A DNA stretch of 64,000 bases from a virus. The translations under genes and the position numbers were made by a program. How positions within the stretch are numbered: the stretch's first letter is position 1; every line of letters starts with the position of its first letter. Below are positions 3,426 to 3,515 of the stretch, piece by piece. The notes under the pieces were generated by a model that saw only the letters and a list, made by a program, of their open reading frames with translations, was not told where the DNA came from and searched no databases. The DNA is taken from IMG/VR virus record IMGVR_UViG_3300045988_126226, positions 3,035 to 67,034 of that record; one strand, given 5' to 3'.

Positions 3426-3515
3426 CTTTCATTAGAAAGGTATACGGGTTCAAATCCTGTAAACTCCAACTGGGGTTTTGGCGAAATTGGTTAACGCACA
3501 TAACTTGAAATTATG
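3426..3515 (+). tRNA. circularly permuted type II tRNA (Ser-like, anticodon TGA): 3' half (3426-3468: variable-arm hairpin, T arm, acceptor 3' strand) followed by 5' half (3471-3515: acceptor, D arm, complete anticodon arm)
   Basis: 3' acceptor AAACTCC pairs 7/7 with GGGGTTT (G-U at one position); T arm ACGGG-TTCAAAT-CCTGT; variable hairpin CTTTC-ATTA-GAAAG; anticodon arm CATAA-CTTGAAA-TTATG; break falls between anticodon stem and variable arm; no CCA encoded. Confidence 0.45.

What the first reader, a model, noticed from the sequence alone, without database searches (positions are those of the whole stretch)
3426..3515. Second permuted tRNA, type II Ser(UGA)-like, broken between the anticodon arm and the variable arm
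A variable-arm-like hairpin (CTTTC-ATTA-GAAAG), T arm (ACGGG-TTCAAAT-CCTGT) and acceptor 3' strand AAACTCC at 3426-3468 are followed 3-4 nt later by the acceptor 5' strand GGGGTTT (7 bp including one G-U). Then come a D arm and a complete anticodon arm CATAA-CTTGAAA-TTATG (3471-3515). Nothing tRNA-like follows, because the next promoter begins there. A conventional tRNA-Ser(UGA) with the same anticodon loop exists at 22553. This looks like a second permuted gene with a different break point, here with no encoded CCA.
Basis: seen in the sequence. Interest (0 to 1): 0.7.

Follow-up and report, generated by a model that had tools for sequence, protein, structure and literature searches.

The report
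Phage Y-RNA-like complete tRNA mimic
The "permuted tRNA" is real as a shape, but it is most likely not a tRNA gene: it is one of a large, apparently undescribed family of phage small RNAs that mimic tRNA and are genetically tied to a divergent Ro60-like RNA-binding protein in an RNA-repair gene cluster.

The parts
3409..3414 (+). Basal helix, 5' strand (AGACAC)
   Evidence: Pairs with 3525-3530. The helix covaries across homologs. Family consensus is (A/U)AAGAC.
3417..3425 (+). Conserved single-stranded motif ACAGCAAUU, the proposed protein-binding site and analogue of the GNCGAA/CGAA motif of Y RNAs
   Evidence: Only two exact copies in the window, at 3040 and 3417. Invariant in alignment A1. 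The CAGCAA core is shared by 312 non-redundant units.
3426..3439 (+). Variable-arm-like hairpin CUUUC-AUUA-GAAAG
   Evidence: Covariation, e.g. GUUCU/AGAAC in L016.
3444..3460 (+). T arm (ACGGG UUCAAAU CCUGU)
   Evidence: 3 of 6 pairs have double changes.
3461..3478 (+). Closed acceptor-like hairpin: AAACUCC, loop AACU, GGGGUUU (7 bp, no CCA)
   Evidence: 7/7 pairs in 7 of 8 homologs. 4 of 5 modelled pairs have double changes. Loop analysis.
3479..3498 (+). U8, position 9, D arm (GCG/CGC stem, loop with A14, G18G19, A21) and A26
3499..3515 (+). Anticodon-arm mimic CAUAA-CUUGAAA-UUAUG (loop pattern C-U-NNN-A-A; triplet UGA here)
   Evidence: All 3 modelled pairs covary. The triplet varies among homologs.
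3516..3524 (+). Conserved U-rich linker UUUUCUAAC (UUUCU conserved in B-types)
3525..3532 (+). Basal helix, 3' strand GUGUCU, plus conserved AG (family consensus GUCU(U/A)G-U)
3031..3151 (+). Sister unit A: same module with a YrlA-like cargo (T arm, closed acceptor with GCCA in the loop, D arm)
   Evidence: Rfam YrlA 33.5 bits, E 2.3e-5, below the gathering score of 69. Fold. R1 45.4 bits.
1898..1968 (+). Module copy with small non-tRNA cargo (ACAGCAAUC)
23329..23396 (+). Module copy with small cargo (UCAGCAAAU)
25248..25393 (+). Module copy with a long non-tRNA cargo (ACAGCAAAU)
   Evidence: Conserved in L123-L134.
25510..25571 (+). Module copy with small cargo (CCAGCAACU), 2.7 kb upstream of the Ro60-like gene
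28286..29812 (+). Gene for the Ro60-like protein (Pfam DUF2828 + DUF7788), the proposed protein partner
2988..3016 (+). Sigma-70-type promoter (12/12 match) of the operon: unit A, tRNA-Ile, spacer, tRNA-Pro, unit B

Best explanation
Unit B (3409-3532) is a non-coding Y-RNA-like RNA of the YrlA kind and not a tRNA gene. It has two modules. The constant module is the helix formed by the RNA's own 5' and 3' ends (AGACAC/GUGUCU) together with the adjacent single-stranded ACAGCAAUU and the 3' ...GUCUAG. I infer that this is the docking site for the phage's Ro60-like ring protein (DUF2828/DUF7788, gene at 28286-29812), as the terminal stem plus (GN)CGAA motif is for Ro60 on Y RNAs. The variable module is a complete, circularly permuted cloverleaf: V hairpin, T arm, acceptor stem capped by a tetraloop, D arm and anticodon stem-loop. 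I infer that it presents a tRNA shape, including an anticodon loop, to tRNA-binding proteins. It would act as tether, bait or decoy within a phage RNA-repair and quality-control system that also includes an RNA ligase, an RlaP nucleotidyltransferase, phosphoesterases, PIN-PhoH and a major-vault-protein homolog. Shown here: the structure, its conservation and covariation, the modular family, the Ro60-like fold of the protein, and the genomic coupling. Inferred: physical binding to the Ro60-like protein, the identity of the proteins that the tRNA mimic recruits or distracts, and the absence of cleavage at the capped acceptor.
For: Structure: (six helices, 97.3% paired, 15/28 pairs with compensatory changes, 0/500 shuffles, slid controls at most 3). 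Family: over 119 viral loci from one pattern. CM R1 separates B-types (99-132 bits) from A-types (30-55 bits) and finds three more divergent B lineages. 312 non-redundant units share the module consensus. YrlA likeness: sister unit A and other A-types give full-length Rfam YrlA matches at 31-41 bits. The arm order V-T-AS-D is the YrlA definition. Protein partner: the DUF2828/DUF7788 protein has a Ro60 fold. Coupling: loci anchored on that gene in phages with only 50-60% protein identity carry 2-8 modules upstream on the same strand, 136 modules observed against 34 in shuffles. Conversely, 48 of 242 RNA-anchored loci, about half of which are chance pattern hits, encode the Ro60-like protein, against 0-4 for other window proteins. 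All 16 measurable cases are on the same strand, with several RNAs ending 19-270 nt before the gene start. Precedent: Thermus phage phiLo Ro60 with two Y-RNA-like genes directly upstream, and Y-RNA-like RNAs with Ro60 in other phages. Context: RlaP, RNA ligase, phosphoesterases and MVP travel with the Ro60-like gene.
Against: The defining Ro-binding motif of bacterial Y RNAs (GNCGAAN0-1G) is absent and ACAGCAAUU stands in its place. Rfam YrlA does not hit unit B at all, and it hits unit A only below the gathering score. Canonical YrlA has no anticodon loop, whereas unit B has a full one. In this window unit B lies about 25 kb from the Ro60-like gene, inside a tRNA operon, although other module copies lie 2.7-5 kb upstream of it. 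The AF2 model is of moderate quality (pLDDT 69.5). No binding or expression data exist. Many module copies sit in tRNA arrays, so a role in tRNA-operon processing is not excluded.
Confidence: 0.66

Rival explanations
1. It is a genuine circularly permuted tRNA gene. The transcript is cut at the leader/trailer module, and the ends after 3515 and before 3426 are ligated, for example by the phage RNA ligase with end-healing phosphoesterases. RNase P and 3' trimming plus CCA addition then open the acceptor loop, giving a decoding class-II tRNA(UGA).
For: The re-permuted sequence is called tRNA-Ser(tga) by ARAGORN, and all homologs re-permute to tRNAs. The acceptor stem is 7 bp with U8, A14, G18G19 and a canonical T loop. 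The leader/trailer helix brings the two ends together. The phage encodes an RNA ligase, RlaP and phosphoesterases. About a third of sister A-type units encode NCCA in the acceptor loop. M. smegmatis YrlA is cut by RNase P and receives CCA.
Against: The anticodon is not conserved. It reads UGA to UAA between near-identical phages, and GAU, GAA, AAC and GUA elsewhere, always on a long-variable-arm scaffold that bacteria use only for Ser, Leu and Tyr (identity rule from established knowledge). One lineage lacks U33. There is no CCA, position 73 is A, and the acceptor is capped by 3-4 nt loops in most B-types. The module also closes cargoes without an anticodon arm or any tRNA likeness. There is no BHB motif, and no splicing endonuclease is known in bacteria. 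The phage already has tRNA-Ser(UGA) at 22553.
Confidence: 0.07
2. It is a stand-alone decoy or sponge for host tRNA-targeting defences (anticodon nucleases, tRNA-modifying or tRNA-binding toxins). It would work without the Ro60-like protein, and the constant module would serve only to stabilise the RNA or define its ends.
For: The anticodon stem-loop mimic is complete, with the conserved C32-U33...A37-A38 frame and a lineage-specific triplet. It lies in phage tRNA arrays, which are thought to replace cleaved host tRNAs. An RNA-repair gene set is nearby.
Against: This does not explain the sequence-specific conservation of ACAGCAAUU, the module's use with non-tRNA cargoes, or its tight, same-strand linkage to the Ro60-like gene. 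It is compatible with the best explanation as the role of the cargo.
Confidence: 0.15
3. It is a processing or punctuation element of tRNA operons. The module and the tRNA-like folds would be recognition sites for RNase P, RNase E or RNase III that separate neighbouring tRNAs, with no function as a stable RNA.
For: Units sit directly next to tRNAs, usually 5-15 nt upstream of the next tRNA. Unit B ends the operon that starts at promoter 2988-3016.
Against: Many units lie next to the Ro60-like gene without adjacent tRNAs. Full tertiary-interaction nucleotides and six covarying helices are far more than a cleavage signal needs. Cargo diversity behind a constant module fits a scaffold RNA better.
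Confidence: 0.07
4. It is a degenerate remnant: the 3' half of one decayed tRNA gene followed by the 5' half of another.
For: The arm order T-acceptor-acceptor-D is what a junction between two tandem tRNAs looks like. YrlA has been proposed to derive from a dimeric pre-tRNA.
Against: The two acceptor strands pair with each other across a 3-4 nt loop and covary. The whole unit is conserved with compensatory changes in at least 11 lineages.
Confidence: 0.01

Closest known systems
YrlA (Y RNA-like A; Rfam RF02553; Chen et al. 2014, PMC4201824; structure in bioRxiv 10.1101/312249)
   Same: The RNA's 5' and 3' ends pair into a stem next to a conserved 5'-side motif. The tRNA-like domain is in the order V, T arm, closed acceptor-like stem-loop, D arm, with tRNA tertiary nucleotides. 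It is encoded in phages and bacteria together with a Ro60-type protein. It is described as resembling a circularly permuted tRNA.
   Different: The motif is ACAGCAAUU rather than GNCGAAN0-1G. Unit B has an additional complete anticodon stem-loop, and the closing helix leaves from the 43/44 junction instead of replacing the anticodon stem. The acceptor is a constant 7 bp. The partner protein is a divergent Ro60-like family (DUF2828/DUF7788) that Pfam TROVE does not recognise. There is no Rfam hit for unit B, and A-types reach only 31-41 bits.
Yrl1/Yrl2 of Thermus phage phiLo with phage Ro60 (PMC12135203)
   Same: Several phage-encoded Y-RNA-like genes lie directly upstream of a phage Ro60 gene, each with a terminal 5'-3' stem plus an internal loop that carries the binding motif.
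   Different: phiLo uses the CGAA motif and stem-bulge-stem RNAs. Here there are up to 8 paralogs per phage, tRNA-like cargoes in several permutations, and an RNA-ligase/RlaP/MVP neighbourhood.
Circularly permuted tRNA genes of Cyanidioschyzon merolae, some green algae and Thermofilum (Soma 2007; review PMC3978253)
   Same: The 3' half is upstream of the 5' half, the acceptor ends are joined by a short linker, the leader and trailer pair, and re-permutation gives a canonical cloverleaf.
   Different: Those have a BHB motif, are processed by the splicing endonuclease and ligase through a circular intermediate, and keep anticodon and identity. Here there is no BHB, the anticodon is variable, and the closing module is shared with non-tRNA RNAs.
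Two-piece tmRNA from permuted ssrA genes
   Same: A bacterial-type precedent for a circularly permuted tRNA-like gene whose product works as a tRNA mimic.
   Different: tmRNA has a tag reading frame, an alanine identity G3-U70 pair and a CCA end. ARAGORN finds no tmRNA here, and unit B has none of these features.

Membership tests
Circularly permuted tRNA gene | 3' half (variable/T arm/acceptor 3' strand) encoded upstream of the 5' half (acceptor 5' strand/D/anticodon arm), joined by a short linker | tested here: met
   Read. The linker AACT lies at 3468-3471.
Circularly permuted tRNA gene | Re-permuted sequence is a canonical tRNA by a standard detector | tested here: met
   ARAGORN calls tRNA-Ser(tga). 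All 7 homologs also re-permute to tRNAs.
Circularly permuted tRNA gene | Leader and trailer form a bulge-helix-bulge motif at the junction to be ligated | tested here: not met
   The 6-bp helix is separated from the junction by 11-nt and 9-nt single strands. It carries a conserved ACAGCAAUU instead. No bacterial splicing endonuclease is known.
Circularly permuted tRNA gene | Anticodon and identity elements conserved among orthologs, consistent with decoding | tested here: not met
   UGA, UAA, GAU, GAA, GGA, AAC and GUA occur on one class-II scaffold, and U33 is lost in L102. Position 73 is A and there is no CCA, unlike the genuine tRNA-Ser at 22553.
Circularly permuted tRNA gene | Circular intermediate and mature ligated tRNA detectable | not testable with these tools
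   Needs cRT-PCR or small-RNA sequencing of infected cells.
YrlA / bacterial Y RNA (Rfam RF02553) | 5' and 3' ends pair to form the closing stem | tested here: met
   3409-3414 pairs with 3525-3530. 3 of 7 pairs have double changes.
YrlA / bacterial Y RNA (Rfam RF02553) | tRNA-like domain ordered V, T, closed acceptor-like stem-loop, D | tested here: met
.
YrlA / bacterial Y RNA (Rfam RF02553) | Conserved 5' motif GNCGAAN0-1G (Ro binding) | tested here: not met
   The 5' region reads AGACACAUACAGCAAUU with no CGAA. The family consensus is AUACAGCAA(U/A)U.
YrlA / bacterial Y RNA (Rfam RF02553) | No anticodon loop; the anticodon-stem equivalent runs into the Ro-binding stem | tested here: not met
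   Unit B has a separate 5-bp/7-nt anticodon-like hairpin at 3499-3515. YrlA lacks the anticodon loop.
YrlA / bacterial Y RNA (Rfam RF02553) | Reaches the Rfam gathering score (69 bits) | tested here: not met
   No YrlA hit for unit B even at E up to 10. Unit A scores 33.5 bits and other A-types 31-41 bits.
YrlA / bacterial Y RNA (Rfam RF02553) | Encoded next to a Ro60 ortholog | tested here: inconclusive
   At family level it is strongly linked to a gene with a Ro60-like fold. That protein is a divergent family (DUF2828/DUF7788), and unit B itself lies about 25 kb from it in this window.
YrlA / bacterial Y RNA (Rfam RF02553) | Bound by Ro60/Rsr in vivo | not testable with these tools
   Needs RIP or EMSA with the DUF2828/DUF7788 protein.
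Two-piece (permuted) tmRNA | Tag reading frame, G3-U70, CCA end | tested here: not met
   ARAGORN finds no tmRNA in the window. The acceptor is GGGGUUU/AAACUCC with no CCA.

The most novel reading that the evidence does not exclude
B-type units are real permuted tRNA precursors of a bacteriophage. The conserved ACAGCAAUU/helix module would be a new kind of RNA end-joining signal, used by the co-encoded Ro60-like protein, RNA ligase and end-healing enzymes to circularise the RNA. RNase P would then open the acceptor, yielding unusual class-II tRNAs with lineage-specific anticodons. A milder version: the Ro60-like protein, the MVP homolog and these RNAs form a phage vault/Ro-like particle that uses full tRNA mimics as bait for host anticodon nucleases.
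Probability: 0.07. Interest if true: 0.9.

Novelty: new variant of a known kind. Interest (0 to 1): 0.62.

Why it matters
Y RNAs and Ro60 are conserved from bacteria to humans, yet the effectors recruited by the tRNA-like domain of bacterial YrlA remain unknown. This phage family offers a natural series. One constant docking module is fused to many cargoes: partial tRNA mimics with or without an encoded CCA, complete cloverleaf mimics with an anticodon loop, both circular permutations, and non-tRNA hairpins. The family is coupled to a large, unnamed protein family (at least about 8000 relatives in the protein search) that here turns out to have a Ro60 fold, and that sits with RNA ligase, RlaP, phosphoesterases and a major-vault-protein homolog. 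This makes two things testable: which part of a tRNA shape a Ro-type RNP needs, and whether phages use tRNA mimics to repair or shield the translation apparatus against host tRNA-cleaving defences. It is also a caution for annotation, because perfect permuted cloverleaves in phage tRNA arrays are not necessarily tRNA genes.

Tried and rejected
(1) ARAGORN and Rfam at gathering score on the native sequence found nothing at 3426-3515. Only a partial sub-threshold tRNA hit on the 5' half appeared (24.5 bits).
(2) BLAST of the operon against GenBank phages matched only tRNA-Pro in Phass-1, so no annotated relative exists there.
(3) I considered a self-cleaving ribozyme (hammerhead, twister, hairpin) as the identity of the module. 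No core motifs are readable, there is no Rfam hit, and the module closes very different cargoes, so I rejected it.
(4) I considered a permuted group I intron (PIE). The flanks are far too short (about 17 and 17 nt), so I rejected it.
(5) I considered pairing of CAAUU with the D loop (AAUUG). It is not conserved (e.g. L030), so I rejected it.
(6) The genome-contig scan gave recurrent Nostoc, Bartonella and Flavobacteriia hits that turned out to be chance matches inside conserved coding sequences, not YrlA.
(7) The sequence search of the DUF2828 protein against the PDB gave no hit, and NCBIfam gave none. Only the fold search revealed the Ro60 relationship.
TAG-containing ORFs were therefore translated but not scanned, so a second, canonical TROVE gene in them is not excluded.
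(9) Burroughs & Aravind 2016 could not be read. What I say about it rests on the citing review and on memory.

Full report
OBSERVATION. The window is an AT-rich (33% GC) phage-like sequence with many tRNA genes (13 by ARAGORN, more by Rfam). Its long ORFs appear only when TAG is read through, and it carries a CTA-anticodon tRNA. These are the V-like hairpin 3426-3439, T arm 3444-3460, acceptor 3' strand 3461-3467, a 4-nt loop AACT, acceptor 5' strand 3472-3478 (7 bp, one G-U), U8, a 3-bp D stem with A14/G18G19/A21 (3481-3497), and the anticodon-like arm CATAA-CTTGAAA-TTATG (3499-3515). RNAfold reproduces all of them. Standard detectors see nothing in the native order. After the two halves are re-joined, ARAGORN calls tRNA-Ser(tga).

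The element is longer than reported. AGACAC (3409-3414) pairs with GTGTCT (3525-3530) and closes the whole structure. Between that helix and the V hairpin lies ACAGCAATT (3417-3425). The only other exact copy of this motif in the window sits at the equivalent place of the neighbouring 'first permuted tRNA' (unit A, 3031-3151), which is closed by AAGACTAAA/TTTAGTCTT. Unit A gives a full-length but sub-threshold match to Rfam YrlA, the bacterial Y RNA-like family (33.5 bits, E 2.3e-5, gathering score 69).

A LARGE FAMILY. Most share one plan: leader strand, ACAGCAAUU, cargo, trailer strand ending GUCU(U/A)G. Four kinds of cargo occur:
- A-type: V, T, closed acceptor and D, which is the YrlA plan.
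- B-type: the A-type plan plus a full anticodon-like hairpin, as in the finding.
- Normal-order tRNA-like bodies in which the basal helix takes the acceptor's place.
- Small hairpins with no tRNA likeness.
The opposite circular permutation also exists: an open acceptor stem, with the module as a closed hairpin where the anticodon arm would be. The window itself holds six copies: 1898-1968, 3031-3151, 3409-3532, 23329-23396, 25248-25393 and 25510-25571. Over the viral loci held, 312 non-redundant units give the consensus 5'-(A/U)AAGAC-N3-AUA-CAGCAA-(U/A)U ... G-N-G-UCU(U/A)-G-U-3'. Lengths are bimodal at 60-80 and 100-140 nt.

THE B-TYPE IS A CONSERVED STRUCTURE BUT NOT A CONSERVED ANTICODON. 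Eight distinct B-type sequences were aligned (A1). RNAalifold finds all six helices. Pair counting gives 97.3% standard pairs and 15 of 28 pairs with changes on both sides. No shuffle out of 500 reaches this, and slid controls give at most 3. A covariance model built from A1 scores B-types at 99-132 bits and A-types at 30-55 bits. It also recovers three further, more divergent B lineages with variant motifs and TTCGA T loops, so the subtype does not depend on the search pattern. All eight aligned members re-permute into ARAGORN tRNAs, but they read Ser(tga), Leu(taa), Ser(tga), Ile(gat), Phe(gaa) twice, Ser(gga) and Val(aac). The newly found lineages read GUA, GAU and a loop without U33. The UGA-to-UAA change occurs between near-identical phages (window versus L121). 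All carry the long V hairpin and a type-II-like D arm. In bacteria that architecture belongs to Ser, Leu and Tyr tRNAs only (established knowledge), so the Ile, Phe and Val versions make no sense as decoders. The loop frame C32-U33-NNN-A37-A38 is conserved. B-type acceptor loops never start with NCCA (0/10) and are mostly 3-4 nt long. By contrast, 20 of 65 A-type loops start with NCCA, mostly GCCA, against about one expected by chance. Unit B has A at position 73. The phage's genuine tRNA-Ser(UGA) at 22553 has G73 and an encoded CCA and is not similar in sequence.

THE PROTEIN PARTNER. Pfam annotation of TAG-free ORFs found:
- 28286-29809: DUF2828 + DUF7788.
- 30761-33256: a major-vault-protein homolog (MVP shoulder, E 7e-22).
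- 35136-35939: a weak RlaP hit.
- 39295-40662: an RNA ligase (DRB0094-type, weak).
- Three calcineurin-like phosphoesterases, an SPFH protein and PIN-PhoH.

GENOMIC COUPLING, TESTED IN BOTH DIRECTIONS. First, loci were fetched by the protein. In phages whose protein is only 50-60% identical to the window's, 2-8 canonical modules lie upstream of the gene on the same strand. L143 has eight, and in L149 one ends 80 nt before the gene. Loci with only 32%-identical partial homologs have none. In total 136 modules were found against 34 in shuffled sequence. Second, loci were fetched only by the RNA pattern. Of these 242 loci, about half of which are chance hits in coding sequence, 48 encode the Ro60-like protein at 32-58% identity. 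Other window proteins occur in 0-4 of them. In all 16 measurable cases the RNA and the gene are on the same strand, and several RNAs end 19-270 nt before the start codon. This is the arrangement that defines bacterial and phage Y RNAs: next to Ro60 in more than 250 species, and two Yrl genes upstream of the phage phiLo Ro60. RlaP, the RNA ligase, phosphoesterases and sometimes MVP/SPFH stay with the Ro60-like gene in the distant phages. [quoted passage not shown]

MECHANISM. Shown: a stable-looking, covarying RNA made of a constant closing module and a complete permuted cloverleaf; a modular paralogous family; a Ro60-fold protein; and tight gene linkage. Inferred, by analogy with Y RNAs: the terminal helix plus the 5'-side single-stranded motif docks the ring protein. 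In Y RNAs, Ro60 contacts mainly the conserved 5' strand, and the CGAA motif lies in an internal loop next to the 5'-3' stem. Also inferred: the cargo presents a tRNA shape to other proteins. Because the B-type adds an anticodon stem-loop with a conserved frame but a free triplet, I think it most likely serves as bait, tether or decoy for proteins that read anticodon loops, such as host anticodon nucleases, or the phage ligase and RlaP that repair such breaks. With its tetraloop-capped acceptor it probably stays uncleaved, whereas GCCA-bearing A-types such as unit A may be opened by RNase P as M. smegmatis YrlA is. These last points are hypotheses.

COMPARISON AND MEMBERSHIP. Unit B works like YrlA but fails several defining features of it: no GNCGAA motif, an anticodon loop, no Rfam score, and a partner from a divergent Ro60-like family. 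It looks like a permuted tRNA gene but fails the features that make those genes functional: no BHB motif, and neither anticodon nor identity conserved. I therefore file it as a new variant of the Y-RNA/YrlA kind and not as a member of RF02553. No paper in the held library describes DUF2828 as Ro-like or reports this RNA family. That library is incomplete, and Burroughs & Aravind 2016 could not be read.

VERDICT. The topology interpretation is right and the functional interpretation is not supported. Confidence is 0.66 in the Y-RNA-like, Ro60-like-partner explanation and about 0.07 for a genuine permuted tRNA. Interest is 0.62: not the first permuted tRNA of a phage, but an apparently undescribed, widespread phage RNA family and protein partner that bears on an open question about what tRNA-like Y RNAs do.

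Noticed in passing
window 30761-33259 (+): An 832-aa homolog of the eukaryotic major vault protein (MVP shoulder E 7e-22, vault repeat) is encoded about 950 nt downstream of the Ro60-like gene. MVP homologs (55-66% identity) also lie near the Ro60-like gene in L136, L137 and L148. A TROVE-like protein, MVP and small structured RNAs together recall the vault particle.
   Followed up: partly
window 3031-3151 and A-type units in many loci: About a third of A-type closed acceptor loops (20/65) begin with N-CCA, mostly GCCA. Unit A reads GCTCCCG-GCCAT-CGGGAGT. This suggests that these RNAs are cut by RNase P to expose a CCA end, or that they mimic one. B-types never have it.
   Followed up: partly
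L051 97-209 and 281-398; L032 1187-1306(-) and 1310-1426(-); L018 626-749(-); L019 675-792(-): Normal-topology tRNA-like genes (open 7-bp acceptor, D and T arms; Rfam tRNA 45-55 bits) in which a 51-62-nt insert replaces the anticodon loop or arm. The insert is the same module folded as a closed hairpin followed by ACAGCAAUU. This is the opposite circular permutation of the A-type.
   Followed up: partly
window 3230-3330 (+): A ~100-nt spacer between tRNA-Ile(GAT) and tRNA-Pro(TGG) in the same operon. It has no Rfam hit and no exceptional fold (z -0.65). Its function is unknown.
   Followed up: partly
window 3331-3403 (+): A GC-rich tRNA-Pro(TGG)-like gene found by Rfam (45.9 bits) but not by ARAGORN. 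It has an unusual T loop (GGGCGGGACTC).
   Followed up: no
window 5414-5503 (+) and the whole window: A tRNA with a CTA anticodon (amber suppressor; ARAGORN labels it Pyl), together with many long + strand ORFs that carry 1-8 in-frame TAG codons. The phage reads TAG as sense.
   Followed up: partly
window 24368-24496 (+): A RAGATH-33 RNA (126.8 bits, above the gathering score) lies in the same RNA-rich region between module copies. Its function is unknown.
   Followed up: no
window 25577-25716 (+): A 140-nt Rfam tRNA hit (59.9 bits) that ARAGORN does not call, presumably an intron-containing tRNA, immediately after the module copy at 25510-25571. A group I intron was seen in a tRNA array of a related locus (L015 820-1004).
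   Followed up: no
window 29901-30644, 36227-37018, 38573-39322 (+): Three paralogous ~250-aa ORFs with repeated CxCxCG motifs and in-frame TAGs are interspersed among the Ro60-like, MVP and ligase genes. They may be homing-endonuclease-like insertions. Not scanned.
   Followed up: no
L019 3708-4084 (-): A phage-encoded tmRNA (Rfam 94.6 bits; tag GNYAYSFAY) lies in a tRNA array that also carries module RNAs.
   Followed up: no
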